Positions 1 through 64,000 of a stretch of DNA of 64,000 nt are shown in pieces. Location: the IMG/VR virus record IMGVR_UViG_3300027286_000002. One strand, written 5' to 3'. This DNA is from a virus (lineage: Duplodnaviria > Caudoviricetes). Position 1 is the stretch's first letter, and every line of letters begins with the position of its first letter. The notes under the pieces were generated by a model. That model had not been told where the DNA came from, searched no databases, and worked only from the letters and a program-made list of their open reading frames with translations. The position numbers were made by a program, and so were the translations under genes.

Positions 1-1237
1 TGTCATTAAATGCTGTTGCACCTGTTGAGGTTTCACCTGCTTCAACAAGAACAGAAGTACCCCAAACAATCTTATCATCTTTAAGAACCCATGAAACACC
101 TTCGATAAAATTAGAAGATGCACCACCTGATCCATCAGCAACAAGAGAAACAGATTCAACACTAACAACACCTGTGCTTGGAATGTAATCAAATTGATCT
201 CTAAAGCTATTAAAGTAATAAGTTACTGTTAAAGTAGCATCAGTAGCTGGAGCATCTTTCAAAGTAATGCTACCATTAGTACCATCTACACTTGCAGGTG
301 AAATTGTACTGCCATTAAGTTTAACTACAACATCAGTAATATCAGTAGTAGTAATACCACCATTAGTACCATCGACAATAGGATAATGACTTGTAAAGAA
401 AGTCTTGTTTCTTGAAGTAGCTTGATTAACGACAAGACCAAGTTTAGCATTAGCAGATCCACTACCAATAACAATAGAGCCATTAGCATTTAATTGTAAG
501 TTTTCTTGATTAAAGTTATCTGTGTATGTAGATGCCTCTAAAGAACCATAAGATCCTGAATTAATAATAGCAACTACTCTATTAAGATCATCTTCTCTAT
601 TGCCTGTTGAAACTGTTGGCAAAGAAATAGAATATTGAACACCATCTACTAAGAAAACAAAAACATTACTTAAAGCATCAAAATCAAAGCTACCATTTGA
701 GCCAATGATTTCAGCTTGAGTAGTAGTGATTTGAGATGAAATATCTTCATTCTCAATTAAAGTATCTGTTCTCTTAAAAAAATAAGAAACTAAAACAGTA
801 TCTGTGATAGCTGGTGTAGATGCAAGTTCAACAATACCTTTAGCACCATCTACACTTAAAACAACAGTAACTTGACCATTGACATAAGCAGTGACACTAG
901 AACTATCAGTAGCGACTACACCACCACCCGTACCATCAACCATAGGAAATTTTTGAACTTGCACTTTAGTTGCAGTTCCATTGAAATTACCTAAAATTGG
1001 TGTACCATCAGGATTAAATCCTAATACTGCACGACCACTCATATTTTCATTTACAATTCGTTGATCTACAGATGAAGAAGATCCACGAATCATTTGAACT
1101 CCAACAGATTGAATAGTTTCTTTACCTGCACCTAGCAATAAAGGTATTTGACCTGTGAAATTGCTAGATGGTAAAGGTGAATCAAAAACTGTTTGAGTAT
1201 ATACACCGGGCGGTGCATAGCCACCTTGAATAGCCAT
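1..1237 (-). CDS. Tail sheath protein, N-terminal part (runs off the window start; absent from the ORF track)
   Basis: Manual translation from ATG at 1237 (GGAG SD upstream): MAIQGGYAPPGVYTQTVFDSPLPSSNFTGQIPLLLGAG. The Y-x-P-P-G-V-Y start is typical of contractile sheath proteins; frame appears open to base 1. Confidence 0.75.
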   Translation of the reverse strand, partial: MAIQGGYAPPGVYTQTVFDSPLPSSNFTGQIPLLLGAGKETIQSVGVQMIRGSSSSVDQRIVNENMSGRAVLGFNPDGTPILGNFNGTATKVQVQKFPMVDGTGGGVVATDSSSVTAYVNGQVTVVLSVDGAKGIVELASTPAITDTVLVSYFFKRTDTLIENEDISSQITTTQAEIIGSNGSFDFDALSNVFVFLVDGVQYSISLPTVSTGNREDDLNRVVAIINSGSYGSLEASTYTDNFNQENLQLNANGSIVIGSGSANAKLGLVVNQATSRNKTFFTSHYPIVDGTNGGITTTDITDVVVKLNGSTISPASVDGTNGSITLKDAPATDATLTVTYYFNSFRDQFDYIPSTGVVSVESVSLVADGSGGASSNFIEGVSWVLKDDKIVWGTSVLVEAGETSTGATAFND

Positions 1238-1249
1238 AATCTTTTGCTC

Positions 1250-1675
1250 CTATTTTTGTTGGAAATTACATCCAATTTCTTTTCTGACTTGGTTTTTTAT
1301 ATCTCTTTGAGTTTCATGATAATGCTTATCCATTACATATTCATTGTCATATCCAACAACAATATCTAATGGATTGCCTTTTGTTTCTTCAAGTAGCTTT
1401 ACTTTGTCTTTATATCTCATCTTTGCAATTTCCCATTTTCTAATAGAATCTTGCATCAATACTCTTTCAAAGTTCGTATCCAAACTCTCAACACCTGTTG
1501 ATTGTGGTTTTACTTCTTCTACTTGAATTGCATTATATCCAATACTCTTTGTACCTTGTAATGCAGAAAAGGCTTCTTTTCCACAGGATGTACAAGATTG
1601 AGAATTGACATCAGTAGCTACTCTTTTACTAAAAGATAAACCACATGATCTACATTGGAATTTTAAGATAGGCAT
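1250..1675 (-). CDS. FmdB-like zinc-ribbon protein
   Basis: N-terminus MPILKFQCRSCG...CTSCG matches the MP-x-Y/F-x-CxxCG...CxxCG zinc-ribbon pattern. Confidence 0.6.
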   Translation of the reverse strand: MPILKFQCRSCGLSFSKRVATDVNSQSCTSCGKEAFSALQGTKSIGYNAIQVEEVKPQSTGVESLDTNFERVLMQDSIRKWEIAKMRYKDKVKLLEETKGNPLDIVVGYDNEYVMDKHYHETQRDIKNQVRKEIGCNFQQK

Positions 1676-1720
1676 TAAGATTACTCCTCTTTGTCTAATA
1701 ACATTGATTTAATAAATAAA

Positions 1721-2830
1721 TTATTTAAGATCTTGGATTTTATATTTCACCAAACCTGTGTAGCCTACTTGATTTTCTGCATCAGGCAATTCCTTTTCTA
1801 AACTTAATGATTTCCCATAAGACATTAATGGTTCTATCAATGGAATGTGCATAAACCAATCCACCTGCAAGGTTGTAGATACACTCGCTGTGTAAAAATA
1901 ATCATCACCATTTTCATCATACACCTCTTCTGATTCACCACCTAAACTCACTTCATTCATATTGATGCCTCTTGTAGCCAGCTGATCTTTTAATACTGCC
2001 CACATCCACACTGTTGTTCTATCAGCCAAATCTGCTTGCGAATGGACATCTCTTGCTATAATTTCTATTTCTACAGAAACATCCCATCTGCCACCATACT
2101 CTTTATAAATATCATCAGGTTCATCTAAAACAACAATCGCTTGCTGATCACCACCTCTTAACCTGCGACCAAAATAAATTAAAACCCCGGGGATAATCTT
2201 ATGATAGACTTGATCAGGTCTTACATATTTTGGCTCAATCACACCTACCTGCAATTCTGTATATGTGATCTCTATATTTAAACCATTTAATAATTCATTA
2301 GCTAATTCTATCACATCACCATTTAAAGTATAGTCTACACCTTCTACATATCGCATATATGATGGTTTCTCAATAATCCTTAAACTATTTTCCACAGGTG
2401 TACCTAACAATTGGATTTCTGTTGGACTAATAAACACAGGTTCTGTTTCTTTTACTCTTTTATATTTAGTGATGTCTATACGATAAGTTTCATATTGATC
2501 TTCTATTTGAGTAATATCTAAAATATAAATACCTTCATCTGCACGGAATTTTGGATTTTCTTTGACCCACTCAATAGATCCATATTGTAGCTTTTTTGTT
2601 TTAGCTAGATAAACATATCCTCTTACTGTTGTTAAGTAATTATCTGCACTCATCACTACATTATTTGCTCCACCTGTCTTAATCACCATGCCAAATTGTG
2701 GTCTTTGGTCAAAGCTATATTTACCTTGTATATTATTTGCCAATTCAGGATATCTAGGATGATCTGACCAATATTTTCTTAGTTCTTCTATCATGAGATT
2801 GCGAACTTCTAATGTTAAGTAATGAAACAT
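1721..2830 (-). CDS. Putative tail terminator/tail completion protein
   Basis: 369-aa ORF just upstream of the sheath operon, with a beta-rich C-terminal segment (YFYTASVSTTLQVDWFMHIP). Assigned by position and general similarity only. Confidence 0.45.
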   Translation of the reverse strand: MFHYLTLEVRNLMIEELRKYWSDHPRYPELANNIQGKYSFDQRPQFGMVIKTGGANNVVMSADNYLTTVRGYVYLAKTKKLQYGSIEWVKENPKFRADEGIYILDITQIEDQYETYRIDITKYKRVKETEPVFISPTEIQLLGTPVENSLRIIEKPSYMRYVEGVDYTLNGDVIELANELLNGLNIEITYTELQVGVIEPKYVRPDQVYHKIIPGVLIYFGRRLRGGDQQAIVVLDEPDDIYKEYGGRWDVSVEIEIIARDVHSQADLADRTTVWMWAVLKDQLATRGINMNEVSLGGESEEVYDENGDDYFYTASVSTTLQVDWFMHIPLIEPLMSYGKSLSLEKELPDAENQVGYTGLVKYKIQDLK

Positions 2831-2867
2831 TTCTTATTTGCTCCTTTTAAAGATACTTTTAATAACT

Positions 2868-3452
2868 TCATCTATTATCTTGTCTACCATTTTTATTATT
2901 ACTCCTTGTAGTCATTGCTTTAAATCTAGCTTGTTTTCTTTTAGCTTGTAGCATTATCTTTTTACGATCAAGCATTTCTTGACCTGTCATTTTCTCATAA
3001 GCTAGAATAGCAGTAGCTTGCATGACTGCACGATCTATTGCTTTTTCTATCCAAGAGTATTTTACAATCGCTGGATGAATCCATGACTTATCTGTTACTA
3101 ATGGTAGTGTTCTAAATTCTATTTCACCTTGTTTATTTTTTACAGGTATTGCTTGTCTTGGTCTATTTCTATCTGTCTTTAACCATGTCATTGGATATGC
3201 AGGCTTATTTTTTAAATGGTATTTGATATGTTGCCATGTAGAATATAAAACTATATCACCATTCTCTTTTATTGTTGTACCGAATGAGTAAATAAATTCT
3301 TGTGTTTTAGGTACTGCATCAAATATTTGACCTGCTCTTTTTGCCTCTTCCCTTACTTCATTTAAGATCATTTCTGCAATAAATTTTATTTCTTTTTTAG
3401 TCTTGTCTTTTAAAGGCTGTCTAAAGACAAATTGCTTTTTTAATCTATCCAT
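2868..3452 (-). CDS. Putative neck/tail-completion protein (HK97 gp10-like)
   Basis: Basic 194-aa protein ending WIHPAIVKYSWIEKAIDRA in the neck gene cluster. Confidence 0.35.
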   Translation of the reverse strand: MDRLKKQFVFRQPLKDKTKKEIKFIAEMILNEVREEAKRAGQIFDAVPKTQEFIYSFGTTIKENGDIVLYSTWQHIKYHLKNKPAYPMTWLKTDRNRPRQAIPVKNKQGEIEFRTLPLVTDKSWIHPAIVKYSWIEKAIDRAVMQATAILAYEKMTGQEMLDRKKIMLQAKRKQARFKAMTTRSNNKNGRQDNR

Positions 3453-3458
3453 TTTCTC

Positions 3459-3494
3459 AATCCTTTTATATAAGCAATCCGATATAAAAGGATT
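3459..3494 (-). promoter_or_regulatory. Perfect 13-bp inverted repeat sequestering the SD of 2868..3452
   Basis: AATCCTTTTATAT-N10-ATATAAAAGGATT; on the minus strand the 3' arm carries AAAGGA just before the ATG. Confidence 0.7.
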
Positions 3495-3500
3495 ATGACC

Positions 3501-3653
3501 TTATGGTTCAAAAGACTCTGCATCCCAATATGCTTCATCTTCTGTACCATAACCTTCAAGTTCAATTTCATAGATGATGTGTCCATCTTCTGAAAAGGTT
3601 ACGATTGCTGTCCAAGTGGTTTCATTTTGGTAGGTTTGAATATGCTTTTCCAT
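3501..3653 (-). CDS. Small acidic hypothetical protein (50 aa; start revised from ORF track)
   Basis: ATG at 3653 with AAAGGA SD and C/A-rich leader; MEKHIQTYQNETTW... Confidence 0.55.
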   Translation of the reverse strand: MEKHIQTYQNETTWTAIVTFSEDGHIIYEIELEGYGTEDEAYWDAESFEP

Positions 3654-3684
3654 ATTAAAAAATCCTTTTTGTTGTTGTTGTATA

Positions 3685-3719
3685 TATGTAAACCAAAACC
3701 ATATAAATTTATTGCATAT
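3685..3719 (-). promoter_or_regulatory. Degenerate copy of the conserved promoter-like motif
   Basis: Minus strand reads ATATGCAATA-N12-TTTGGTT-TACATA followed by a caacaacaac leader like other copies. Confidence 0.45.
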
Positions 3720-3774
3720 TGATAATCTTTTTATATGTTTTTTTATTTTGATTATAAACAAAAGGATAAACATT

Positions 3775-30193: not shown

Positions 30194-30208
30194 TCGTCCT
30201 TTCGTTTT

Positions 30209-30607
30209 TTAACAATCTACTTGATTGACACTCATTTTTGTTAGTCTTTTTATTTGTAATCCATCAGGTACTTTATCGCTAGGATTGTTTCTACATTCCC
30301 ATGATAAGTAAGATAGGATGAAATCTATATCACTTGTCACAAATTTACCATCTGTGAAAAGAGGATAATTATTATCATTTTCTGTGAAGGATAATAAATT
30401 TTTGTGATTGACTACTAGACCTGTGACATATTTACCATCTTCTGTTGTCCTAATGGTGATACTTTCAAATCCCATTGCTACAAAATCATGAAGAATTACT
30501 TCATTCTTTTTGATTGAGAAGTTTAAACCTTTCATGGTCAATCTTTCTTTGATGTATGTCTTTTCCTTGAGAACAGTAATACCTTTTGATCTTCTTGCCA
30601 TTTTCAT
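30209..30607 (-). CDS. Hypothetical protein
   Basis: 132-aa ORF with AAAGGA SD, downstream of a promoter motif copy. Confidence 0.6.
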   Translation of the reverse strand: MKMARRSKGITVLKEKTYIKERLTMKGLNFSIKKNEVILHDFVAMGFESITIRTTEDGKYVTGLVVNHKNLLSFTENDNNYPLFTDGKFVTSDIDFILSYLSWECRNNPSDKVPDGLQIKRLTKMSVNQVDC

Positions 30608-30645
30608 TTTCCTTTTTTTGAAAAGTGGTTTTGTCTTATTGATAC

Positions 30646-30682
30646 TACTTAAACACTTAAGATTAAGATTTATTGCAAGTCA
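30646..30682 (-). promoter_or_regulatory. Conserved promoter-like motif copy
   Basis: TGACTTGCAATA-N12-AAGTGTT-TAAGTA on the minus strand. Confidence 0.7.
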
Positions 30683-30724
30683 GATAAAAAAGATTATAAG
30701 AAAAAAAAGAAAGCAGGTGTTTAA

Positions 30725-31069
30725 TTGATTAAACTTTACTTACCTTTTACACAAGATTTGATAAAAGTGCCTTATTCCGAACAGGATATGTATTTGATCC
30801 AAGCTAAAGGATCAGGTTCTATTAAAATAGGTGTAGCTAAAGATTGTGATGCTCGTATAAAGCAATTACAGACAGGCAATGCTGTAGAATTAAGATTGAT
30901 TCATGTCTTTAAAGGATATGGCAATGTAGAAAGACCACTGCATAAAGAATTGAAAAAGTTTAGAGAAAAAGGTGAATGGTTTTCCTATAAATGTGTTGGC
31001 TCACTGCCTGTTGAGATATATGAACAGATACCTTATGGTGCATTAGATTCATGGTGGCTTTCTATATAA
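30725..31069 (+). CDS. T5orf172/GIY-YIG-like nuclease domain protein
   Basis: YLIQ...IKIG...RIKQLQTGN...E..LH.......KGEWF; TTG start uncertain. Confidence 0.8.
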   Translation: MIKLYLPFTQDLIKVPYSEQDMYLIQAKGSGSIKIGVAKDCDARIKQLQTGNAVELRLIHVFKGYGNVERPLHKELKKFREKGEWFSYKCVGSLPVEIYEQIPYGALDSWWLSI

Positions 31070-31156
31070 GAGCCAAGCAAACCTACTAGATATATAAATA
31101 ATGCCTCTTTACTTAAAAAGAATAAAGCTAAACAAATTAAAAGATGCTTAATCATT

Positions 31157-36049: not shown

Positions 36050-36217
36050 ATGAATTGCACGATCTGTGGCAAAAAATACCACGACCTGCCTAATGCTATC
36101 AAATGGACTGAAAGAGATGGTGGTGCTTGTGAACCTTGTGTACATAGACTTAGAAAAACCTTTGGCAAATACCATGAACATTTCATTACACATGAAAATA
36201 AGAAAGCTAAAAAATGA
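36050..36217 (+). CDS. 55-aa CxxC...CxxC zinc-finger protein (absent from the ORF track)
   Basis: MNCTICGKKYHDLPNAIKWTERDGGACEPCVHRLRKTFGKYHEHFITHENKKAKK; AAGGAG SD; ATGA overlap with the Toprim gene. Confidence 0.65.
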   Translation: MNCTICGKKYHDLPNAIKWTERDGGACEPCVHRLRKTFGKYHEHFITHENKKAKK

Positions 36218-36891
36218 ATTGGCTAGATGATTTTATCTCAATCCTGCCTTTAAGCACAGAGCATCAAAACTACTTAAATAAAAGAGGTGTGGATCAAAAC
36301 ACTAATGTTAATTTTAAAACCTTTGATATGGTAAACTTTAACATTCCGTGTGATCGATTTAAAGCAACCTTTGGCAAAGCAGGTGAAAAATTAAAAGACT
36401 GTTTAATCATCCCTGCTACCTGTCCAAAAGGTGAAACCTATGGATTTGAAGCAAGGTCTTGGGATGCAAATGGTAATAAAAAAGTTTTTAAATATATGCT
36501 AGATCGCAGTCAATGGATACCTTCTTTACTTAATGGACATGAAGTAGCTGAATCATTATGGTCTAATGGTGATGTTTATTTTGTTGAAGGTGTCTTTGAT
36601 ATGGTTGCTCTTAAAAAGGTTATCTCATATCCCAATGCAGTAGGCTGTACTATGAGAGCAGGTGTAGATGAATTAACAATCTCTTTAATCCAAAGGTTTG
36701 CTAATAAGATCAGTACTATTTATATGGCATACGATAATGACAACACAGGTAGATTGAAATCTAGTGATGCTATTTATAAATTCAAAAAGTTAGGTATTCG
36801 TGCTGTGGAATGTAAATATCGTGGCAAAGATCCAAATGAATTATGGACGATACAAGGAGATGCAGGTCTAAAAAGATACTTCCTATTTTAA
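36214..36891 (+). CDS. DNA primase catalytic (Toprim) subunit lacking a Zn-binding domain
   Basis: YLNKRG, FEAR, YFVEGVFDMVAL, AYDNDNTG and KDPNELW are DnaG-type Toprim motifs. Confidence 0.85.
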   Translation: MNWLDDFISILPLSTEHQNYLNKRGVDQNTNVNFKTFDMVNFNIPCDRFKATFGKAGEKLKDCLIIPATCPKGETYGFEARSWDANGNKKVFKYMLDRSQWIPSLLNGHEVAESLWSNGDVYFVEGVFDMVALKKVISYPNAVGCTMRAGVDELTISLIQRFANKISTIYMAYDNDNTGRLKSSDAIYKFKKLGIRAVECKYRGKDPNELWTIQGDAGLKRYFLF

Positions 36892-37390: not shown

Positions 37391-38263
37391 ATGAGTAGAC
37401 AAGTTTTAATAAATAATGTAGTCAAAAGACATATCATTCGTTTAGCATCTATTGATGCTATTCGTGAAAGTAAAAAATATAAAACAGCTAGTGCTGGATA
37501 TGTTCGTTCTGAAATCACACCTGAAGTTTTAGAAGTTTTAGGCAATCATCTTTTCTATAAGACTGCTTTTATTAAAGACATTACTTCTTTATATGAAAAC
37601 ACTAAAAATTCTTTAATCCATATCTATGAAGAAATACAAAAGAAACCAAACAAATGGGAAGAAATTAAAAAAACCTTAAATCTCGATCCTAAAAATATTG
37701 GTTCTATGCTAATGGACTTGCCTAATTTTAAATCCAATTTTGGCAAGTGGTTAGAAAGTGTTATTAAAGATATACCTTTCTTAAACATCATGTATAAAGT
37801 GTCTAAATTAGAATATACACAAGCGAAACAATGGTTAGAGAACTTATATGCTAAACTACCTGCTAAAATCCAACAAGGTATAGATAAACTTAAAAATATG
37901 GCTACATCTGTTAAGGATTGGTTAGGAAAGATTTGGGATTTATTAAAAGAAAAAATTAAAAAGACAGATAACAAAGCAGTAAACATAGCTGTGTTTTTAG
38001 TCTATTTAGGTATTTCAAGAAAAATAGATGATGATACCTTTGCAAAGAAAAATCTAGTATCAGGACTAACAGGCAAATTAGATAGTGATCAGATACTAGA
38101 TGATTTACCTATGGATAAGTTAAGTGATTTCATATCTGCTCTTTTAGAGGATTTCATAGATATTGAAGATATTGTGAAATATAAGACTTTACCTTTTCAG
38201 ATTTATTTCCTTTATCAAGAAGGATATTTAGATGAAGAACTAAGAATATTGAAAGGACATTAG
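37391..38263 (+). CDS. Helical hypothetical protein, tandem paralog 1
   Basis: N-terminus IRLASIDAIRESKKYKTASAGYVRSEI aligns with paralogs 2 and 3. Confidence 0.7.
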   Translation: MSRQVLINNVVKRHIIRLASIDAIRESKKYKTASAGYVRSEITPEVLEVLGNHLFYKTAFIKDITSLYENTKNSLIHIYEEIQKKPNKWEEIKKTLNLDPKNIGSMLMDLPNFKSNFGKWLESVIKDIPFLNIMYKVSKLEYTQAKQWLENLYAKLPAKIQQGIDKLKNMATSVKDWLGKIWDLLKEKIKKTDNKAVNIAVFLVYLGISRKIDDDTFAKKNLVSGLTGKLDSDQILDDLPMDKLSDFISALLEDFIDIEDIVKYKTLPFQIYFLYQEGYLDEELRILKGH

Positions 38264-38265
38264 GA

Positions 38266-39141
38266 ATGAAAAGAGAAATTTTAATAAAACTTGCCTGTCA
38301 AATAGCAGTACATAAAAGCATTAAATATAAAACTGCATCACATTTAAGACAAGAACTTAATGCGACTACTTTAATACCTTTTGGCAATCAAATTGTTAAG
38401 TATGGTTCTATTAAAGGTCTTGTTGGTAAAATTAAACAAATCTATGAAGGTTTTCAAAAGATGCCAAACCTTTGGGAAAAGTTTAAAGAAAAATTAGGTA
38501 TCACTGCGACTAATGTTGTTTCTCTATATAAGCAACTTAATGAAAAGTTATCTGAATATCTTGAAGAAGGTAAAAAATGGATTGATGGACATAAACAGAA
38601 ACTAGCAAAAGAAAACAAGCTAATTTATTTTATGTTCTTATATGCAGAGAATGCACCTACAATAACAGGTTCTATAAAAACACTACTTGAAAAGATCAAT
38701 CCTGATAATTCATCTAAGCTGTCTAAAAAACTTAAACAATTATCAGATGGATTTGGAAACCTAAAAGACACAATAGATGAGTTCTTTAAAAAACATCCTG
38801 TTCTACATACAATCAGTATTCCTGCTAAAGCATATTTATTTTGGATCATTTGGGTCAATGTAGCTGAAGTCAGTTGGAAAATCACAGATATTATTAAAGG
38901 TTTTCTAGGTCAAATCTCATGGGGTGATCTTTTAGAATCACTACCTGAAAGTGGTTTAGGTTTTCTTATCCAAATCTTTATGCCTTTCATCCCAAGTGGC
39001 ATGGTTGCATCTTCTTTAAAGATAGGTTGGAATGCACTGATCATCCCTGCTATGGGTATACAATTTTATTATCTGTATCAACAACACTTAATAGATGAAC
39101 ATGGTAAACTGATTGAAAGTGAAGTAGAGAAACTAACATGA
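38266..39141 (+). CDS. Helical protein with hydrophobic C-terminal segments, tandem paralog 2
   Basis: IKLAC...KYKTAS; C-terminal YLFWIIWVNV, LGFLIQIFMPF and WNALIIPAMGIQFYYL. Confidence 0.75.
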   Translation: MKREILIKLACQIAVHKSIKYKTASHLRQELNATTLIPFGNQIVKYGSIKGLVGKIKQIYEGFQKMPNLWEKFKEKLGITATNVVSLYKQLNEKLSEYLEEGKKWIDGHKQKLAKENKLIYFMFLYAENAPTITGSIKTLLEKINPDNSSKLSKKLKQLSDGFGNLKDTIDEFFKKHPVLHTISIPAKAYLFWIIWVNVAEVSWKITDIIKGFLGQISWGDLLESLPESGLGFLIQIFMPFIPSGMVASSLKIGWNALIIPAMGIQFYYLYQQHLIDEHGKLIESEVEKLT

Positions 39142-40010
39142 AATATATAAAACTTGCCTGCATACAAGCAATAAAAGAAAGTAAAAAGATAAGGACAGCT
39201 AGTGCATATCAAGTTAGAAAAGAACTTAATGCGACTACCTTAATACCTTTTGCTAACCAAATTGTTAAACATGGTTCTCTTTTTGGACTAACAAGTAAAC
39301 TCAAAGATATTTATGAAAAGTACCAAGAGCAACCACAGATGTGGAATCTTTTTAAAAAGACTTTAGGTATTAATGCTATAGATAATGTTTCTCTATATCA
39401 CCAGCTTAATGATAAATTAGCAGGATATCTTGAACAAGGTAAAGAATGGGTCAATAAGCATAAACAACAGCTATCGGAAAAAAATAAGTATTTGTACTTT
39501 ATGTTCTTATATGCAGATAAAGCACCAACAGTAACAAGTTCAATAAACTATTTACTTGAAAGAGTAGATAGTGAAGAAAAGCAAATTATCATGCAGGCAT
39601 TTAAAAAATACAATGGTGGTTTTAATACCTTTGCAGAAATTATTGAAGATTTTTTTGATCATCATCCTGTTTTTGATGTCATGTCTATGCCTGCTAAAGC
39701 ATATGTATTTTGGTTAGTTTGGACAAATGTAACAGAAATAAGTTGGAAGGTTACAGATATCACTAAAGGATTTTTAGGTTTAATGTCATGGGGTGATCTT
39801 ATTCGTACTTTACCTGAAACAGGTTTAGGTTTACTTATTCAAGTATTTTGTCCTTTTATCCCAAGTGGAATGATTGCATCCTCTTTGAAGATAGGATGGA
39901 ATGCTTTAATAATACCTGCTATGGGTGCTCAATTTTATTATCTGTATCGCAGGCATTTAATAGATGAAAAAGGTAATCTAATTGAAAGTGAAGTTTTAAA
40001 ATTAGAATAG
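39138..40010 (+). CDS. Helical protein with hydrophobic C-terminal segments, tandem paralog 3
   Basis: Collinear with paralog 2 (ELNATTLIPF, MFLYA, IPSGMxASSLKIGWNALIIPAMG); ATGA overlap. Confidence 0.75.
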   Translation: MKYIKLACIQAIKESKKIRTASAYQVRKELNATTLIPFANQIVKHGSLFGLTSKLKDIYEKYQEQPQMWNLFKKTLGINAIDNVSLYHQLNDKLAGYLEQGKEWVNKHKQQLSEKNKYLYFMFLYADKAPTVTSSINYLLERVDSEEKQIIMQAFKKYNGGFNTFAEIIEDFFDHHPVFDVMSMPAKAYVFWLVWTNVTEISWKVTDITKGFLGLMSWGDLIRTLPETGLGLLIQVFCPFIPSGMIASSLKIGWNALIIPAMGAQFYYLYRRHLIDEKGNLIESEVLKLE

Positions 40011-50910: not shown

Positions 50911-51591
50911 TTAAATTTTAAGTGTTGGTACTTTTTTGTTTTCAACTTCTTGTTGCTCTACAAGTCTTATATTATTCCATCCTAATAATACATCTTCTAC
51001 ACCTCTTGACCATGCAATATGTCCTTCACATAATGGTCTGTTTGGATCAACTACAATCCAAGTAGGTTTATTAAGATGTTGTCTTAATTCTATTGTTTCT
51101 ATTAAGACTTCAGGCATAGCTGAATTTCTTGCCATCTTAACACCTAATCTCACTATTAAAAGACTTGGTGCTTCAGCCATATCTTCTAAACCACGAACTG
51201 TAATTTCTCTAGTGAAATCAGGATCAATAATATCACTTTGTGCTAATGAGATATTAGAAAGCCATGCACTCATTAAATTTGCATCAGATACAACTTTAAT
51301 AAAAAAGCTAGGATTCTTTTCTAAAAAGATTGCTCCTTTCAGATGAGAACATAATTCTGTTTTCTCTGCATGAACAATAATGTTTTCTTTTAGTTTACCT
51401 TTTAAAGGTGTAGCTTTTTTCGCTGGAAATTGACTTAAACCTGTCCAAGCTCTTTCACATTGATTTTTCAAATGTTCTTTTAATACACATGAACATTGAG
51501 CCATGATAGGTTCATTTCTATAATATTGACCACTAGGTACTAAACCTATGCCACCACATTTTTCACAAACTTTAGCCATTGTCTTTTGCAT
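50911..51591 (-). CDS. Putative helicase loader (DnaC/DnaI-like, Zn finger plus degenerate AAA domain)
   Basis: CEKCGGIG...QCSC Zn finger; LLIVRLG...LIETIELR...KPTWI resembles DnaC; adjacent to the helicase; no intact Walker A. An alternative ATG lies at 51579. Confidence 0.5.
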   Translation of the reverse strand: MQKTMAKVCEKCGGIGLVPSGQYYRNEPIMAQCSCVLKEHLKNQCERAWTGLSQFPAKKATPLKGKLKENIIVHAEKTELCSHLKGAIFLEKNPSFFIKVVSDANLMSAWLSNISLAQSDIIDPDFTREITVRGLEDMAEAPSLLIVRLGVKMARNSAMPEVLIETIELRQHLNKPTWIVVDPNRPLCEGHIAWSRGVEDVLLGWNNIRLVEQQEVENKKVPTLKI

Positions 51592-53170
51592 CCTCTAGTA
51601 AGCCATTGAAAATATCTTTGAGTTCTGTATCAGATACTCCTTCTATCTTATCTGATTCTTCATCGTTTTTCAGTCTTTTACCTAAAACATTTTCAATTAA
51701 ATCCATTTTACTTGCTAAGGCTTTCATTACACGATCATCAATAGTCTTTGGACAAACTAAATGATAACAAAATACACGATCATGAATACTACCGATACGA
51801 ATCATTCTACCAATGATTTGAAGATAATCACCTGCACTCCATGGGGAGTCATAAAAGATAACTGCTTTAGCTAACTGTAAATTAATACCTTCTGCCGCCG
51901 CCATTGTAATCAAGACGACCTTTACATCAGAATTTTCATCTTGAAATGCCTCTTGTGATTTCTTTCTCTCATCATCCTTTTCACCACCTGTAATTCTTAC
52001 ACTCTTAATTTTCTTTGCTGTTAGTTCTCTTTCCAAAACATCTATCATCTTCCTAAACCTTGAAAAGATAATTACCTTTTCTCCATCTAGTTCATCTTCT
52101 AGTAACTCAAATAAAGCATCCATTTTGCCACTATCACCTGTCGCATCTACAAGTTCTAAATGGTTTACAATCTGTTGACAATACATAACTGCTGTGAGTT
52201 TTGTTACTTCCTTTTGTTTGATCTCACCTGATTCAGCATCATATTTTTCTAATAGACCACTTAATGCTTCTTTATATTTTGATCTTTGTTGATCAGATAA
52301 TTCACATTCAATTCTCTTAGTAGTCAATGGTGGCAATTCACTCGCTACTTCATGTTTTGGTCTACCTACAAAGAAAGGATCAATCTTTTCTTTAAATGCT
52401 TCAATATCAGATTTCCTATGACCTACTACAAACTTAATTCTCTTTCTACCTATTTGCTTATCTACACATACACAGTAATTAGACATGAATACATTCTTGC
52501 TAGGCATAAGTCCGGGGACAGTTACTTTATAGATTGCCCATGCTTCCATAAGTCTATTTTTAATAATAGTAGCTGATAAAGACCATACCTTTTCTGCACT
52601 ACCAGATAAATGAGAACAAACTTGATGGATTTGAGAAGTATCGTTTTTAAAAGCAGTTGCCTCGTCAAAGACCATAACATTACCTGTGATAGGTTGAATA
52701 ATATCAAAATCAATCACACCTGTTCTATAACCTAAAATAAGAACTTTAGTAGTAGTACAGGCAAAGTAAGCATCATAAACCTTTTGTCTTTTCTTTTTAT
52801 CTCCACTGACAACAAAACAAGAGATACTACCATTGGTAAATTTCTCAAATTCACTTGCCCATTGGTTTAGAGCAGATTTAGTAGTCATAATGACAGCAGG
52901 CATATCAGGTCTTTTTTCCCATACATAGCATAGAGATGCTATGGTTTGAATCGTTTTACCTAACCCCGTGTCATCGCCAAGTACAAATCGTGGCATTGCA
53001 AGTAAATGCAGAATGCCTTGTAATTGATAGTTTCTTAATGTTAAAGGTTTGCCATTTGCCAAATGAGTTCTCAAGAATGAGTTTGCAGGCATTTTGATTT
53101 CTTGTTTAACACGAACTTCTCTTAATTTTTCAATAGTAGCAAGTAGCTTTGGATCTTTTAAATAATTCAT
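51572..53170 (-). CDS. SNF2-family helicase
   Basis: LRNYQ, LGDDTGLGKT, VFDEA, LSAT, AAAEGINLQ and QIIGRMIRIG; start revised to ATG 53170. Confidence 0.9.
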   Translation of the reverse strand: MNYLKDPKLLATIEKLREVRVKQEIKMPANSFLRTHLANGKPLTLRNYQLQGILHLLAMPRFVLGDDTGLGKTIQTIASLCYVWEKRPDMPAVIMTTKSALNQWASEFEKFTNGSISCFVVSGDKKKRQKVYDAYFACTTTKVLILGYRTGVIDFDIIQPITGNVMVFDEATAFKNDTSQIHQVCSHLSGSAEKVWSLSATIIKNRLMEAWAIYKVTVPGLMPSKNVFMSNYCVCVDKQIGRKRIKFVVGHRKSDIEAFKEKIDPFFVGRPKHEVASELPPLTTKRIECELSDQQRSKYKEALSGLLEKYDAESGEIKQKEVTKLTAVMYCQQIVNHLELVDATGDSGKMDALFELLEDELDGEKVIIFSRFRKMIDVLERELTAKKIKSVRITGGEKDDERKKSQEAFQDENSDVKVVLITMAAAEGINLQLAKAVIFYDSPWSAGDYLQIIGRMIRIGSIHDRVFCYHLVCPKTIDDRVMKALASKMDLIENVLGKRLKNDEESDKIEGVSDTELKDIFNGLLEDAKDNG

Positions 53171-53242
53171 TTTTAAGTAGTCATCTTTCAAAGTGATAAT
53201 GAATGATCTACTTATAAGATATTTATCTATGCTTTACATCTA

Positions 53243-59700: not shown

Positions 59701-60522
59701 GCTTTATTTGAATCTATTGAAGGTTATATGAGTGATACAAATAAAGTGAACACGGATGTTTTACATAAAGAACTTCTTAGTTCACAAAATAATCAAAAAG
59801 AAATTTCAGGTTTCTTTGAAGAAATTGGTGCTAAAACTCAAGAGGATGCTCTAAAAATATTAGAGTCTTATCGTAGTGATATTTTAGAGCAAGAAAATGA
59901 TCCTTACTTTAATAAACTTACTAAAGAACAGGAAGAACAAAAAAAGAAAATTGAAGATGCTATGAAAAAGCATGGCATCCAAACTAATTTTGAATCCGAT
60001 TATCTAACTTCAAATTTATCCTTATCTAAAGGCGATGAAAAGTTTCTTCGAACAAGTCATGGTGAAGGTCAATATGTATCAGACACAATGAAAGATGTTT
60101 TTAATCCAGCTTTATTTGCTAAAGCACAAACAGAAGAAAATAAAAAAAATAGAAAAGAAACTGTCGATACTACTGCTGAAGGTATTCAACAAGGTTTAGA
60201 AAAACACGAACTTAGTAAAACTCAATTTGATGCAAGTGGCAATCCTATACCTGCTCTACCTATGCAGGATTTTATTTGGCGAGAAAAAGGTGGTCTACAA
60301 TCATTCTCACCTCAAGATAATGTCATTGGTTTTAAAGATCAAGGTAAAATGGGTTCTGCTATCAATTCTATGATGGCAGGCAATACTACTAATAATAACA
60401 ATAATGCTCGTGCTATGTTTAATATCAATATCAATGGTGGTAATAAAGATGAAGTTCTTAAAACTATTACTGATGCTCTTAAAAGAGCAGGTGTTGTTAC
60501 TGAACGAACTTCTTATGCTTAA
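56752..60522 (+). CDS. Tape measure protein
   Basis: 1256 aa, helical K/E/A/S-rich, short hydrophobic segment (LSVGVMGVVTAF) and a typical C-terminus (NNNNARAMFNININGG). Confidence 0.8.
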   Translation: MAIPKMQMTMDQLKDLTKKISDTDKSLLGVMNTIVHQAELVKKASANFNDTLAKVNSRTLGDYEAQKKKLKEINKINKDFQKSEMEILNNIKNLQAVGSKESRKQIIEQRLELKNLQKEHEKMFNTQRRAYEEIAKQNLKIIKDFEDGIEEINQNLDSAFKDGNLFKQISSIGSELQEVIETAMDGGIAGMEKILSSSLGGITKVFQIRALKLAEQGKKDLARITELKKRGAKSGGSSDDDKELTTLESSRVSSEKDATGMLAMSKGMQMLSVGVMGVVTAFKMMIDAESKVKEFNKDMLNDAGGSLSFLKHSQEGLASSLNTYREGFAKMANTVGMKADEIKSQFIALQDTTFFNKETLKDFDGFERAFKTLSTYSKGLGLSISETTEIAESFVDSMAIDTSTQDGMETLSSAFQSIGFFASKSNISTKAFTNQLKEANAKSTSFNKSIVQTASVMFKVNKALGANRAKDFFEGFEDQKEKEYADLIKNLAMAGGPASETMQKIMRQNAITSAGGLQKAISSDEEKKAFEKASKESGLNLDLTKSNEEIMTQLQGVDLTSDAFVKFISTLEDSGIGNASALIEKVQAGVRSAQGVGKDKGFEEQSLALRELSMGGQYAMKFAEAKAIIETGAGKGKTISQLDEKVLETVKTALKGQGKTEKEINTLISLDQRARGDFSKAQEIQAKYASASAEDKQKMDEDLAKMGLMMNAQGELVTKNTQQLVKSTEDMYVATGEIFSEEQKAREPKVKSEQDLMKDQIDATWGMGDRLEATFGVYLEQLNTYVAKILSYISSWFGTQTNQEMKTQQRLQEEKIDQQKRYDKQIKEETDKIAQLKKTGGSADEVAKSEKRIAELSKLKESSQSELELLQKGATLLGNKKQQELQLATTKRDVASKAFGAGTAGAKLGALKESLGKSTDQEVLDLLDEMRDIYENKDDEDATEEELKKLADFEEKVKASGLQLQLDSTLGTEYAKIFDDQGRALFESIEGYMSDTNKVNTDVLHKELLSSQNNQKEISGFFEEIGAKTQEDALKILESYRSDILEQENDPYFNKLTKEQEEQKKKIEDAMKKHGIQTNFESDYLTSNLSLSKGDEKFLRTSHGEGQYVSDTMKDVFNPALFAKAQTEENKKNRKETVDTTAEGIQQGLEKHELSKTQFDASGNPIPALPMQDFIWREKGGLQSFSPQDNVIGFKDQGKMGSAINSMMAGNTTNNNNNARAMFNININGGNKDEVLKTITDALKRAGVVTERTSYA

Positions 60523-60544
60523 TAGAAAGAAAGGATATGTTTAA

Positions 60545-61141
60545 ATGCCTAGCTTAAATGATCTTAATAATGGATCAGGTGTTAGACCTGTCATTTTTGA
60601 TATTGTTGCTCCTGATGGATACACTTCTCTCTTAAATGATGGTCAATCTGATCTTAGACTTGTTCTTCAAGTCAATCCATCCAATCTTAAATTCTCTTAC
60701 ACTAAAAAAATCACTCGTACTCAAACCTTTGGTGGATTTATTGAAACTCATTGGGGCGATGAACCTATCACCACTAATATCGAAACTGCTACAGGTGGTT
60801 TTATCCGTGTAGGTACAGGTACATCTGCTATCACAGGTGCTGTTCCTAGTGTAGGTGGTTCTAATTTAGATACAGGTACTCGAATGGATACTCTTGCCTA
60901 TGATAAATATTTAGATTTCCTTGCTCTATTCCATAACAATGGTGCTTTATATGATGCCTTTGGCAATATTGTTGTGCATGGTAGAATTAAAATGTCTTTT
61001 AATGGTGGTACATGGTTTGGTTGGTTTCAAACCTTTACTGTTACTGATAGTATTGAAACTCCATATAGCTTTGCTTTAAGTGCAGGCTTTCAAATCGAAA
61101 GAGAAGTACATGAAATCCGAACTCAAATGGGAGGTTTTTAA
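60545..61141 (+). CDS. Tail tube initiator/baseplate hub-like protein
   Basis: LQVNPSNLKFSYTKKITRTQTFGGFIETHWG; paralogous to the next gene; follows the tape measure gene. Confidence 0.55.
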   Translation: MPSLNDLNNGSGVRPVIFDIVAPDGYTSLLNDGQSDLRLVLQVNPSNLKFSYTKKITRTQTFGGFIETHWGDEPITTNIETATGGFIRVGTGTSAITGAVPSVGGSNLDTGTRMDTLAYDKYLDFLALFHNNGALYDAFGNIVVHGRIKMSFNGGTWFGWFQTFTVTDSIETPYSFALSAGFQIEREVHEIRTQMGGF

Positions 61142-61144
61142 AAT

Positions 61145-62212
61145 ATGAAACCTACTCTTGATATTAGTCAATTTTCCCAATTGGCAACAGGTGAACTCTT
61201 TCAAATGTATAGCAATGAAGTATCTAATGGTGGTTATCCTGTAGATACTGCTGATCCTGTTGCTCGTTCTTATTCACCTTTTGTTATGTATATCGAACCA
61301 CCTGCTATTATCTTTCCTAAAACAATAAGAAAACAAAGTGAAATCTCTTCTACTAAAATCCCACCTTTTGCATCACCTTTAAGAAATAGAGCATATCTAG
61401 CTACTAATGTTAATAGTCTTAATGGTGCATCTATTTCTTCTAATGCTAAAAATCCTATTTACTCTTTTAATAGTCAAGTTACTGAAAATAATACTTCTCA
61501 AGCTGGTCTTTCAGATCGTTTAATGGCTTTAGATATTGTAGATCAATTTAAACAATTAAGAGATTTGCCACCACTCGTCTTTCTTTCTAATCCACAATCA
61601 CTAGGCTTAACCTTTACTAAAGTCCAACAATATTCCGAACGAACTAGATTTGGTTATGTTTTTCAAGCATGGGGTGAAGATTTACCTGATCTCGATATTC
61701 AATGCAAATCAGGTGCTTTTATTGCCTATGGTGATCCAAGTAAAACTGCCACAGGTTTGCAATTCGCATCTATGAGAGATAGTGCCAGCTTTAGACAAAT
61801 ACTTGCTATCCTTGCCATGTATCGTAATGGTGCTACCATCCGTGATCGTGTTGGTAGATCTGAAATGATACATGAAGTTGGTCGCTTTGTTATTGAATAT
61901 GATGGTACTAGATATAAAGGCAGTCTTGAATCCTTTGACTATGGTTATGATGAAGCACAAATGCTTGGTGGTATGGATTTTAACTTTAAAATGAAAGTTC
62001 ATGAAATGACTTATTTTGAGCCTACTAAAGCACAAAATACTGCCACACCTAAAACAAATCTTGATGCTGATAAAATAGAACTTACTCAAAACGATATTAT
62101 TGAGGATAACCAAACTACTAAACCTGTTGGATCAGGTGTTTTACTTCCTACAGAGCAAAGCCAACAAACTCAAGTCAATGCTTTGTTTACTTCATCCCAA
62201 CAAGGACAATAA
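61145..62212 (+). CDS. Tail tube initiator/baseplate hub-like protein
   Basis: FLSNPQSLGLTFTKVQQYSERTRFGYVFQAWG parallels 60545..61141. Confidence 0.55.
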   Translation: MKPTLDISQFSQLATGELFQMYSNEVSNGGYPVDTADPVARSYSPFVMYIEPPAIIFPKTIRKQSEISSTKIPPFASPLRNRAYLATNVNSLNGASISSNAKNPIYSFNSQVTENNTSQAGLSDRLMALDIVDQFKQLRDLPPLVFLSNPQSLGLTFTKVQQYSERTRFGYVFQAWGEDLPDLDIQCKSGAFIAYGDPSKTATGLQFASMRDSASFRQILAILAMYRNGATIRDRVGRSEMIHEVGRFVIEYDGTRYKGSLESFDYGYDEAQMLGGMDFNFKMKVHEMTYFEPTKAQNTATPKTNLDADKIELTQNDIIEDNQTTKPVGSGVLLPTEQSQQTQVNALFTSSQQGQ

Positions 62213-62213
62213 C

Positions 62214-64000
62214 ATGAGTACTACTACTAAAGGCACTAGCTTTGTTAATACTTCAAGAATTGAAAATAGACCTTATGCAGGATCATGGAAACCTAATTTT
62301 AGAAAAGTACATACATGGTCACCCGATGCTCTTGTCTATATTAATGGTGATACTGCTTTAATAGGCTGTCAAGAATGTAAAAATAAAATAGATTTCCAAC
62401 CTTTTATTACATCTGTTAATGTTGAAGCAGGTAATACATCTTCATCATCATCATCTTCTATTAATTTTTCTATACCTAAACATCATGGTGATAGCATCTT
62501 TAAAGATGGTACTTTTATTTTATGTGTAGGCTTAGAGATCAATGTCTATTATCGTGGTTTTTTTAATGTCCAGAATTTAGTTGAATCAGAAATCATTGAT
62601 TATGGTGATGAAGAATATGATTTAGCTGATCTACAAATGAAACCTTATTATCCTGTCTTTCATGGTGTTGTTACAAGTGTAAATTACACATATAGTGGTG
62701 GCTTTTATTCAGGCAGTTTATCGTGTAATGGTTTATTACATTTTTGGCAATATCAACATATCATCACACAATCAGCATCACTTGAATCTGTACCTAATGC
62801 TCAAATGCAACCTACAGGTCATGTGTTCACAGGCTGGACACCACATCAAATTATTAAATATCTATTTAAAGATCGTGGTGGGGCTCAAAAAAATGATTTA
62901 GGTTATGTAATCAATGGTGTTAGTAATTTATCTTCTCAAGGTGGTGATGAACTTTGGCAACAAGCATTACAATATTGGGAAACTAGATTTTCTCAAGGTC
63001 TTTATAATTTAAGAATGTATGGTGCATCAGGCAATCTTCTTACTAATGGTGCAGATGCTTATATAGATCAGCTTATTGTTAATAGTGGTTCTTTAAGTCC
63101 TAGATCTCAAAATGGTTTACCTACAATGAACTCTCAACAAAGAGTAGATAACACTCTTGATCCTAGAGTTCTTAGACAATATGATTTAATTGAAGTACCT
63201 TTGACAGGTACAGACACAGAACAAATACAACCTTTTACTTTAGATGTTGGCAGTGTTGGTCAATTTGATTCTTATCAATCTACTTATGAAACTAAATTAG
63301 GTATTGCAGATACTGTCGTTGAAAAAACAAATTGGGAATTTTTTCAAGATGTAGATGGTGATCTTGTTTTTAAACCACCTATGTTTAATCTTAATGTTAA
63401 AGGTAATCGTGTCTATACTATTAAACCTGAAGATATTGTAGATTTAGGTTTTACTCAAAAAGAACCTAATGCTACCTATGTTGTCTGTAAAGGTAGTATG
63501 TTTGGCAATATGACAGGTCTTGTAGATAACCAACAAATTGCACCTCAAGCACAATATGTAGATTATCGTTTAGTTGCTAAATTTGGATGGCGAGAAAATC
63601 AATTTGATGCCACTCATATTAAAGATCCTAAATCTGCTTTCTATATGGCATCTGCTAAACTTGATCTTCTTAATAAAGATGTTGAAGGCTGTACACTCAC
63701 TATTCCTTTAAGACCTGAATTAAAAGCAGGTTATCCTATCTATATTGAACATATAGATTGCTTTTATTATGTAGAAGCTGTTAGTCATTCTTTTTCTTTT
63801 GGTGGTGATTGCACTACTTCTTTAACTCTTGTTTGCAGAAGAAAGAAATTTATCCTGCCCGGCAGTTCTAACACTTCTTATGCACAAGACAGTAGTAAAG
63901 CTGTCGATCTAGCTAATATCTCTCAGCCTAATAAATATCTCAATTCTTTAGACACGGAAGGCAATGTTCGTGTCTGTGGTTTTCCTAATGTAGTTATGGC
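62214..64000 (+). CDS. Baseplate hub (gp27/late control D-like) protein, runs off the window end (absent from the ORF track)
   Basis: Manual translation from ATG 62214 (MSTTTKGTSF...) appears open to the end; contains EFFQDVDGDLVFKPP and LTIPLRPELKAGYPIYI...YYVEAVSHSF...TTSLTL. Confidence 0.7.
   Translation, partial: MSTTTKGTSFVNTSRIENRPYAGSWKPNFRKVHTWSPDALVYINGDTALIGCQECKNKIDFQPFITSVNVEAGNTSSSSSSSINFSIPKHHGDSIFKDGTFILCVGLEINVYYRGFFNVQNLVESEIIDYGDEEYDLADLQMKPYYPVFHGVVTSVNYTYSGGFYSGSLSCNGLLHFWQYQHIITQSASLESVPNAQMQPTGHVFTGWTPHQIIKYLFKDRGGAQKNDLGYVINGVSNLSSQGGDELWQQALQYWETRFSQGLYNLRMYGASGNLLTNGADAYIDQLIVNSGSLSPRSQNGLPTMNSQQRVDNTLDPRVLRQYDLIEVPLTGTDTEQIQPFTLDVGSVGQFDSYQSTYETKLGIADTVVEKTNWEFFQDVDGDLVFKPPMFNLNVKGNRVYTIKPEDIVDLGFTQKEPNATYVVCKGSMFGNMTGLVDNQQIAPQAQYVDYRLVAKFGWRENQFDATHIKDPKSAFYMASAKLDLLNKDVEGCTLTIPLRPELKAGYPIYIEHIDCFYYVEAVSHSFSFGGDCTTSLTLVCRRKKFILPGSSNTSYAQDSSKAVDLANISQPNKYLNSLDTEGNVRVCGFPNVVM

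What the first reader, a model, noticed from the sequence alone, without database searches (positions are those of the whole stretch)
1..64000. RCGY tetramers (ACGT, ACGC, GCGT, GCGC) appear absent while other CpG contexts are common
Going through the CG dinucleotides line by line (several hundred), every one was YCGY, RCGR or YCGR; I found no RCGY. Arg after an A-ending codon is written CGA or AGA (aaacga, agacga), whereas CGT occurs freely after T or C. Inference: avoidance of a degenerate RCGY restriction-modification specificity, or of several enzymes such as ACGT plus GCGC cutters.
Basis: seen in the sequence. Interest (0 to 1): 0.7.

Follow-up and report, generated by a model that had tools for sequence, protein, structure and literature searches.

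The report
Restriction-site purge in freshwater giant phage
A giant freshwater phage has removed every ACGT, GCGC, ACGC and GCGT from its DNA by choosing synonymous codons, almost certainly to escape host restriction enzymes; the strategy is well known, but this case is unusually complete and hints at an undescribed RCGY-cutting enzyme.

Summary
The window has 448 CpGs and no RCGY. The whole 195.7-kb record, a 63%-complete IMG/VR phage fragment, has one RCGY, against 579±19 expected when synonymous codons are shuffled. The absence holds in all three codon phases. RCGA/TCGY are at expectation, so this is not general CpG loss.

It is not an artefact: near-identical sequence occurs in 20 or more river and lake metagenome runs from 2019 to 2025.

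It is one item in a wide purge that also covers CGCG, GGCC, GCWGC, CCWGG, ACTGG, RCATGY, ATGCAT and GAATTC.

Relatives show that RCGY is composite:
- ACGT loss and GCGC loss come and go independently across the clade. Many relatives have neither tetramer yet normal ACGC/GCGT.
- ACGC/GCGT depletion arose once, in the low-GC subclade, and is complete only here.
- The 316-kb sister phage has ACGT 0 but keeps 87 other RCGY. It tolerates CCWGG and ACTGG, avoids CCGG, and carries five C5-methyltransferases, two at positions where this phage has none.

Substitutions at the sister's RCGY sites are mostly not CG>TG/CA, which argues against deamination.

Best reading: selection against host restriction sites, with an ACGT-specific pressure plus a probable RCGY-degenerate one. 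The host and its enzymes remain unidentified. This is a known kind of phenomenon; interest is moderate.

The parts
1..64000 (.). RCGY-free stretch of a phage genome. It has 448 CpGs, all in YCGY, RCGR or YCGR contexts, and belongs to a 195.7-kb record with a single RCGY.
   Evidence: Exact counts; codon-shuffle null; context-dependent codon choice.
30194..31156 (.). Junction between the NAD-ligase gene and a 278-aa gene. At this position the sister phage G001 carries a SWIM-finger gene and a 384-aa C5-cytosine methyltransferase. This phage instead has a 132-aa ORF and a 114-aa T5orf172/MUG113 (GIY-YIG-like) gene, and no methyltransferase.
   Evidence: Synteny and best-hit table; PF00145 absent from G000 but hit five times in G001; ORFs and Pfam.
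51572..53191 (-). SNF2-type helicase gene, used as the marker to collect relatives and to build the tree on which the avoidance states were mapped.
   Evidence: PHROG hit; 31 IMG/VR relatives; tree.

Best explanation
The window is part of an uncultured freshwater giant myovirus-like phage. Its genome has been purged of RCGY by natural selection against double-strand cleavage by host Type II restriction enzymes. Any mutation that creates ACGT, GCGC, ACGC or GCGT is removed. Existing sites were replaced through synonymous codon choice: NNT instead of NNC before GY, CGA or AGA instead of CGY after R, and ACA/ACT or GCA/GCT instead of ACG or GCG before Y.

The purge is composite. ACGT avoidance is old and recurrent in the clade (MaeII/HpyCH4IV-type specificity). 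GCGC avoidance also recurs independently (HhaI type). Loss of ACGC/GCGT arose once, in the low-GC subclade. There GCGC and ACGC/GCGT are depleted by similar factors, which is most simply explained by a degenerate palindromic RCGY specificity in that subclade's hosts. The purge is complete only in this phage.

Shown: the depletion, its codon mechanics, its lineage pattern and its reproducibility. Inferred: that restriction enzymes are the selective agent, and that one of them reads RCGY.
For: 1. Magnitude and specificity. One RCGY is observed against 579±19 expected under the codon shuffle. The next most depleted CpG tetramer class is GCGG/CCGC at 0.13, and RCGA/TCGY are at about 1.0.

2. All three codon phases are affected: 0 of 2,010 xRC|GY junctions, 0 of 838 CGY after A, and no ACG or GCG before Y.

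3. The same genome nearly lacks many classic restriction sites:
- CGCG 0, GGCC 6, GCWGC 1, CCWGG 1, RCATGY 0
- ATGCAT 0, GAATTC 1, ACTAGT 1, AAGCTT 3, ACTGG 3
- GATC is not avoided (890).

4. The sister phage G001 is 78% identical in nucleotides and syntenic, but has a different repertoire. ACGT is 0, GCGC 24 and ACGC/GCGT 63. CCWGG and ACTGG are at expectation, and CCGG is 5 against 88 expected. Avoidance therefore tracks lineage rather than protein content.

5. At 38 aligned G001 RCGY sites, this genome conserves none. Twenty-five changes are synonymous. Only 6 are CG>TG/CA, and 9 keep the CpG but change a flanking base.

6. Across 27 relatives, the minimum number of state changes on the helicase tree is ACGT ≥4, GCGC ≥6, CGCG ≥4 and ACGC/GCGT 1.

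7. The cousins G002-G004 have ACGT 0. GCGC is at 0.03-0.10 and ACGC/GCGT at 0.04-0.05 of composition expectation, while ACGG/CCGT is at 0.34-0.54.

8. Methyltransferase repertoires differ. G001 has five orphan C5-methyltransferases, two at syntenic positions where G000 has none. G000 has PF01555 N6/N4 methyltransferases and a 1,004-aa Type IIG/ISP-like enzyme that G001 lacks.

9. The sequence is present in 20 or more independent freshwater runs.

10. An RCGY read-out exists in nature. GlaI cuts R(5mC)GY (PMC7604892). A giant virus has an RCGY 5mC motif next to a putative endonuclease (bioRxiv 10.1101/2025.11.19.688996).
Against: - The host is unknown, so no cognate restriction enzyme or methyltransferase was found.
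- The REBASE-derived table in Biopython (618 distinct sites) lists no enzyme with RCGY specificity for unmethylated DNA.
- C5-methyltransferase content does not track avoidance across the wider clade. Near-complete relatives without any C5-methyltransferase include both avoiders and non-avoiders.
- The record is only 63% complete, so the missing third could differ.
- A 2-4-fold background CpG suppression at codon boundaries also exists and accounts for a small part of the deficit.
Confidence: 0.78

Rival explanations
1. There is no RCGY enzyme. The pattern is the sum of separate non-degenerate specificities: an ACGT cutter, a GCGC cutter, and one or more enzymes whose sites contain ACGC/GCGT.
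For: ACGT and GCGC avoidance are demonstrably independent traits in relatives. The sister phage has ACGT = 0 but keeps GCGC and ACGC/GCGT. The phage evidently faces many enzymes.
Against: Removing every ACGC/GCGT, whatever its flanks, needs a 4-bp asymmetric specificity, and none is in the table. The alternative is at least four different 5-bp enzymes. Residual ACGC sites in G001 show no excluded flank. GCGC and ACGC/GCGT are depleted by similar factors in all four low-GC relatives.
Confidence: 0.3
2. Mutational decay. RCGY is methylated to 5mC by a phage or host methyltransferase and is lost by deamination to RTGY/RCAY, without selection against cleavage.
For: CpG is globally low (o/e 0.28). 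TG/CA tetramers are about 15% above the shuffle expectation.
Against: - Only 6 of 38 replacements at orthologous sites are CG>TG/CA. Nine keep the CpG and change a flank.
- The TG/CA excess is the same for RTGY/RCAY (1.14) as for contexts whose CpG parents are not depleted (1.15-1.16).
- No C5-methyltransferase is present in the 196-kb fragment.
- Decay gives an equilibrium, not 1 site in 579.
Confidence: 0.03
3. Self-avoidance of the phage's own nucleases. The phage encodes site-specific endonucleases that it uses to degrade host or competitor DNA, and it lacks their sites instead of methylating them.
For: The genome carries a 1,004-aa Type IIG/ISP-like methylase-specificity fusion, a LAGLIDADG gene and a T5orf172 gene, all absent from the sister. 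Repertoire differences between sisters would also fit phage-borne enzymes.
Against: None of these enzyme families is known to read 4-bp palindromes; this rests on established knowledge of the families and was not tested here. About twenty different specificities would be required. No Type IIP-like endonuclease was recognised among the proteins scanned.
Confidence: 0.06
4. A methyl-directed (GlaI-like) host nuclease that cuts R(5mC)GY selects against RCGY, because phage DNA is C5-methylated by phage methyltransferases.
For: GlaI has exactly this tetramer read-out. The sister phage carries five C5-methyltransferases.
Against: This phage fragment has no C5-methyltransferase, yet its purge is the most complete. 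The sister with five methyltransferases keeps more RCGY.
Confidence: 0.04
5. Artefact, or generic codon-pair/CpG bias with no link to defence.
For: NNC|G junctions are 2-4-fold depleted in all contexts.
Against: Independent assemblies from 20 or more runs agree. RCGR junctions persist at 5-12% C while RCGY junctions are 0 of 2,088. The sister phage differs in which tetramers are missing.
Confidence: 0.02

Closest known systems
Restriction-site avoidance in phage genomes (textbook cases recalled from memory: Staphylococcus phage K without GATC, Bacillus phages SPO1 and phi29 without GGCC; general treatments in PMC4176335, PMC8594841, PMC8410138, found)
   Same: Complete or near-complete loss of short palindromic recognition sites through synonymous substitutions. 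The set of avoided sites differs between lineages.
   Different: The lost set forms a degenerate tetramer, RCGY, for which no enzyme cutting unmethylated DNA is listed. About twenty motifs are purged at once in a genome of at least 196 kb. The host is unknown.
Type II enzymes MaeII/HpyCH4IV/TaiI (ACGT), HhaI/HinP1I (GCGC), AcyI/BsaHI (GRCGYC), HaeII (RGCGCY), HgaI (GACGC)
   Same: Their sites are all subsets of, or contain, RCGY. All have zero occurrences here.
   Different: None of them, alone or together, removes every ACGC/GCGT.
GlaI, methyl-directed endonuclease cutting R(5mC)GY (PMC7604892)
   Same: Reads exactly the RCGY tetramer.
   Different: It needs 5-methylcytosine on both strands. 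This phage fragment encodes no C5-methyltransferase.
RCGY 5mC motif with an adjacent putative endonuclease in giant virus ChlorV-1 (bioRxiv 10.1101/2025.11.19.688996)
   Same: A candidate R-M system with RCGY specificity, showing that such a specificity can exist.
   Different: It is a marine virus of a eukaryotic alga, the enzyme is virus-encoded, and it has not been shown to restrict phages.
Methylation-driven CpG depletion (vertebrate type) and generic CpG suppression in low-GC bacteria
   Same: Low CpG o/e (0.28).
   Different: Here the depletion is tetramer-specific (o/e 0.002 against 1.0 for RCGA/TCGY) and is not dominated by CG>TG/CA changes.

Membership tests
Phage restriction-site avoidance | Site count far below expectation after correcting for composition, oligonucleotide content and coding constraints | tested here: met
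   1 observed against 213 (Markov-2) and against 579±19 (codon shuffle).
Phage restriction-site avoidance | The avoided words are plausible R-M recognition sequences (short, palindromic or degenerate-palindromic) | tested here: met
   ACGT and GCGC are known sites. RCGY is a degenerate palindrome. Many other classic sites are co-purged.
Phage restriction-site avoidance | Removal is achieved by synonymous or context-dependent codon choice rather than protein change | tested here: met
   Of 38 orthologous-site changes, 25 are synonymous.
Phage restriction-site avoidance | The host encodes restriction enzymes of the avoided specificities | not testable with these tools
   The host is unknown. The one genome-contig scan found only a 2.4-kb contig in an Altiarchaeales MAG, which is uninformative.
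Single degenerate RCGY R-M specificity | ACGT, GCGC and ACGC/GCGT rise and fall together among relatives | tested here: inconclusive
   Within the low-GC subclade, GCGC and ACGC/GCGT are co-depleted by similar factors, but ACGT is always 0. Outside the subclade the three behave independently.
5mC deamination-driven site decay | Replacements dominated by CG>TG/CA, with a context-specific surplus of the products | tested here: not met
   6 of 38 replacements are of this type. RTGY/RCAY o/e is 1.14, the same as control contexts.
5mC deamination-driven site decay | A cognate C5-methyltransferase acts on the genome | tested here: not met
   PF00145 has no hit in the 195.7-kb record. The record is 63% complete, so absence from the whole genome is not proven.

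The most novel reading that the evidence does not exclude
The total loss of ACGC/GCGT together with ACGT and GCGC is the negative imprint of an undescribed Type II restriction enzyme. This enzyme would cut unmethylated RCGY and would be fixed in the uncultured freshwater host of this phage. More broadly, the roughly twenty-motif 'avoidance fingerprint', and its differences between sister phages, could be used to assign hosts by matching to the R-M or methylome repertoires of MAGs.
Probability: 0.4. Interest if true: 0.55.

Novelty: new member of a known kind. Interest (0 to 1): 0.42.

Why it matters
Restriction-site avoidance is textbook biology, so the phenomenon itself is not new. Three things make this case useful.

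1. It is an unusually clean and extreme example: a degenerate 4-mer with roughly 580 to 1,250 expected copies reduced to one, in a genome of at least 196 kb.
2. The sister and cousin genomes give a layered, datable series of gains and switches. Examples are ACGT shared, ACGC/GCGT subclade-specific, CCWGG<->CCGG and ACTGG<->ACAGG swapped between sisters, and C5 versus N6/N4 methyltransferase sets swapped. This shows how quickly a giant phage re-tunes its genome to a new restriction landscape.
3. It predicts a restriction specificity, RCGY on unmethylated DNA, that is not in the enzyme catalogue. It also gives a motif fingerprint with which to search for the host.

Tried and rejected
- **Megablast against GenBank phages:** no match. 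Only a distant 485-kb uncultured huge phage turned up by protein search, and that phage does not avoid RCGY.
- **Specificity of the sister's C5-methyltransferases:** PDB sequence search matched only the catalytic half of M.HaeIII and M.HhaI, or nothing. No specificity could be assigned.
- **'Protect or avoid' trade-off across the wider clade:** not supported. Near-complete relatives without a C5-methyltransferase include both avoiders and non-avoiders.
- **Host search in genome contigs:** only a 2.4-kb contig in an Altiarchaeales MAG, uninformative.
- **Population test on Logan contigs:** 0 of 40 listed SNPs create RCGY against about 1.1 expected. The power is too low to count either way.
- **tRNA genes as extra test objects:** none in the window and only two in the record.
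- **QueC-like hit, a possible 7-deazaguanine pathway:** only a 30-bit match to the PP-loop end of the model. Not taken as evidence of DNA hypermodification.
- **The scan's earlier host guess (myxobacteria):** not tested and not used.
Full report
**What the sequence is.** The window is the minus strand of positions 84,765-148,764 of a single 195,689-bp IMG/VR virus record. The record is linear and CheckV rates it 63% complete. It encodes a baseplate wedge protein, a DnaB-like helicase, an SNF2 helicase and an NAD-dependent ligase. GC content is 32%. No close GenBank phage exists. The nearest is a 485-kb uncultured huge phage at 35-55% amino-acid identity. IMG/VR holds 31 related contigs of up to 376 kb. 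Near-identical DNA occurs in at least 20 riverine, lake and freshwater metagenome runs from 2019, 2024 and 2025. Their contigs reproduce the window over pieces of up to 14.6 kb with 0 to a few differences. The sequence is therefore real and is not a product of one assembly or platform.

**Checking the observation.**
- The window has 448 CpGs: 346 RCGR/YCGY, 102 YCGR and 0 RCGY, against about 66 expected under a Markov-2 model.
- The whole record has one RCGY, against about 213 (Markov-2) or about 1,250 (base composition).
- I shuffled synonymous codons among positions, keeping every protein sequence and the overall codon usage. This gives 579±19 RCGY in coding sequence, split as ACGT 236, GCGC 84 and ACGC/GCGT 260. 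One is observed.
- Under the same null, ACGA/TCGT and GCGA/TCGC have o/e 1.05 and 1.02. The next most depleted classes are GCGG/CCGC 0.13, TCGA 0.28, ACGG/CCGT 0.31, CCGG 0.48 and CCGA/TCGG 0.54. The effect is specific to the tetramer and is not general CpG suppression.
- All three codon phases contribute. Arg after an A-ending codon is never CGY (0 of 838), but after a T-ending codon it is CGY 353 times in 1,003. ACG and GCG occur before A or G and never before C or T. Codons of the form xRY followed by a GY-starting codon end in C in 0 of 2,010 cases, against about 20-30% elsewhere and 5-12% before GA.
- The single remaining site is GGG-CGT (Gly-Arg) in a 1,683-aa ORF. The sister phage has GGT-CGT there, so it looks like a young synonymous T>G change.

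**The wider purge.** RCGY is one entry in a long list of recognition sites that are absent or nearly absent from the record.
- CGCG 0, GGCC 6, GCWGC 1, CCWGG 1, RCATGY 0 and ATGCAT 0.
- GAATTC 1, ACTAGT 1, AAGCTT 3, ACTGG 3, GTCTC 13, GGYRCC 2, GWGCWC 5 and TTCGAA 1.
- GATC is not avoided (890).
- Part of the CGCG deficit follows automatically from RCGY avoidance, because CGCG can then exist only as YCGCGR.

**What the relatives show.** I fetched the whole 316-kb sister phage G001. It is 100% complete by CheckV, syntenic, and 78% identical in nucleotides over 138 kb of aligned codons. I also fetched three cousin contigs, G002-G004.
- G001 has ACGT 0 (350 expected), GCGC 23 (o/e 0.20) and ACGC/GCGT 62 (o/e 0.16).
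- G001 has CCWGG and ACTGG at expectation, whereas this phage has 1 and 3.
- Conversely, G001 avoids CCGG (5 against 88 expected), which this phage tolerates.
- At orthologous positions the sisters differ by ACTGG<->ACAGG (109 of 220 sites) and CCWGG<->CCSGG.
- The cousins have ACGT 0. GCGC is at 0.03-0.10 and ACGC/GCGT at 0.04-0.05 of composition expectation, while ACGG/CCGT is at 0.34-0.54.
- Among the more distant relatives (39-50% GC), many have ACGT 0 and GCGC 0 with ACGC/GCGT at expectation, for example 110 observed against 113 expected, or 131 against 134. Others lack only ACGT or only GCGC, and some avoid none.
- On a helicase tree, the minimum number of state changes is at least 4 for ACGT, at least 6 for GCGC, at least 4 for CGCG, and 1 for ACGC/GCGT. 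That single change is on the branch leading to the five-member low-GC subclade, which has 100% support.

RCGY in this phage is therefore a composite. There is an old, recurrent ACGT avoidance, and there is a subclade-specific pressure that hits GCGC and ACGC/GCGT about equally. That second pressure has gone to completion only in this lineage.

**Selection or mutation.** At 38 RCGY sites of G001 that align to this genome, none is conserved. Twenty-five differences are synonymous. Only 6 are CG>TG/CA transitions, and 9 keep the CpG but change a flank, as in GCGT>GCGA, ACGC>ACGA and GCGT>TCGT. RTGY/RCAY are 14% above the shuffle expectation. The TG/CA contexts whose CpG parents are not depleted show the same excess. 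No C5-methyltransferase is present in the fragment. A methylation-deamination origin is therefore unlikely. Selection on the identity of the tetramer is the straightforward reading.

**Methyltransferases.** G001 carries five PF00145 C5-methyltransferases. None has a recognisable endonuclease partner, and two of them sit between the ribonucleotide-reductase genes. Two lie at syntenic positions where this phage has none. One of those positions is window 30,194-31,156, which instead holds a 132-aa ORF and a T5orf172/MUG113 gene. In turn, this phage has a PF01555 N6/N4 methyltransferase next to the other junction, a second PF01555-like gene, and a 1,004-aa Type IIG/ISP-like enzyme. None of these has a counterpart in G001. 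The sisters thus differ both in what they methylate and in what they avoid, as expected if they face different restriction landscapes. Across the wider clade, however, C5-methyltransferase content does not predict avoidance, and I could not assign specificities.

**Comparison with known systems.** Phage restriction-site avoidance is established (PMC4176335, PMC8594841 and PMC8410138). Complete loss of a 4-mer is also known, for example GATC in Staphylococcus phage K, which I recall from memory. ACGT (MaeII, HpyCH4IV) and GCGC (HhaI, HinP1I) are standard specificities, and GRCGYC, RGCGCY and GACGC contain RCGY. The REBASE-derived table in Biopython lists no enzyme that cuts unmethylated RCGY. 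An RCGY read-out does exist. GlaI cuts R(5mC)GY (PMC7604892). A marine giant virus has an RCGY 5mC motif with an adjacent putative endonuclease (bioRxiv 10.1101/2025.11.19.688996).

**Verdict.**
- The interpretation as restriction avoidance is well supported on internal and comparative evidence. It remains inferential, because the host and its enzymes are unknown.
- The best model combines an ACGT-specific pressure with a probable degenerate RCGY pressure. I put the existence of a true RCGY enzyme at about 0.4-0.5. The main alternative is several separate enzymes.
- This is a new and extreme member of a known kind of phenomenon, of moderate interest.
- Other first-stage notes of this scan recorded CCWGG and GCWGC/GCNGC avoidance in this same genome. 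My counts agree with them.

Noticed in passing
whole record G000 versus sister G001 (L038-L053); window-wide: The sister phages show a reciprocal switch. This phage has CCWGG 1 and CCGG 31, coding Pro-Gly as CCS-GGN. The sister has CCWGG 91 and CCGG 5. At 26 of 45 aligned sister CCWGG sites, this phage has CCSGG.
   Followed up: partly
whole record G000 versus G001: ACTGG/CCAGT (BsrI-type site) occurs 3 times here and 414 times in the sister. At 109 of 220 aligned sites, this phage has ACAGG/CCTGT, a synonymous T>A change. More than 200 sites have therefore been purged since the two lineages split.
   Followed up: partly
orthologous codon alignment G000/G001 (138 kb): TCGA and YCGR sites are conserved between the sisters at only 5%. 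RCGR/YCGY are conserved at 30% and GATC or CATG at 50%. This suggests rapid turnover or weak, fluctuating selection on TCGA, which is 3-4-fold under-represented but not eliminated.
   Followed up: no
window 30725-31069 (+): A 114-aa T5orf172/MUG113 (GIY-YIG-like) gene sits in the slot where the sister phage carries a C5-methyltransferase plus a SWIM-finger gene.
   Followed up: partly
window 37391-40010 (+): Three tandem paralogous genes of about 290 aa, with no Pfam match and no counterpart in the sister phage. A Toprim-domain gene at 36214-36891 precedes them.
   Followed up: no
G000:166739-169753 (outside the window; L075): A 1,004-aa protein with N6_Mtase, Eco57I, MmeI_Mtase and Type ISP C-terminal specificity domains. 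It is a phage-borne Type IIG/ISP-like enzyme and is absent from the sister phage.
   Followed up: partly
G000:76162-77109 (L076) and G001:231361-232488 (L036): A methyltransferase swap hot spot. This phage has an N6/N4 methyltransferase on one side of a conserved 132-aa gene. The sister has a C5-methyltransferase on the other side.
   Followed up: partly
G000:34049-35982 (L073, L074): A lineage-specific gene pair: an Asp/Arg beta-hydroxylase-like cupin and a protein with a weak QueC/PP-loop match. It may be a nucleotide- or DNA-modifying function. The evidence is too weak to call.
   Followed up: no
relatives L006-L032: GGCC is strongly depleted in almost every member of the clade (1-15 per ~21 kb at 39-50% GC, against 20-69 expected). 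This is the oldest shared avoidance.
   Followed up: partly
L070 (WJJK01000285.1): A 2.4-kb contig encoding a 50%-identical helicase is binned in a 'Candidatus Altiarchaeales' MAG. It is probably a mis-binned phage fragment.
   Followed up: no
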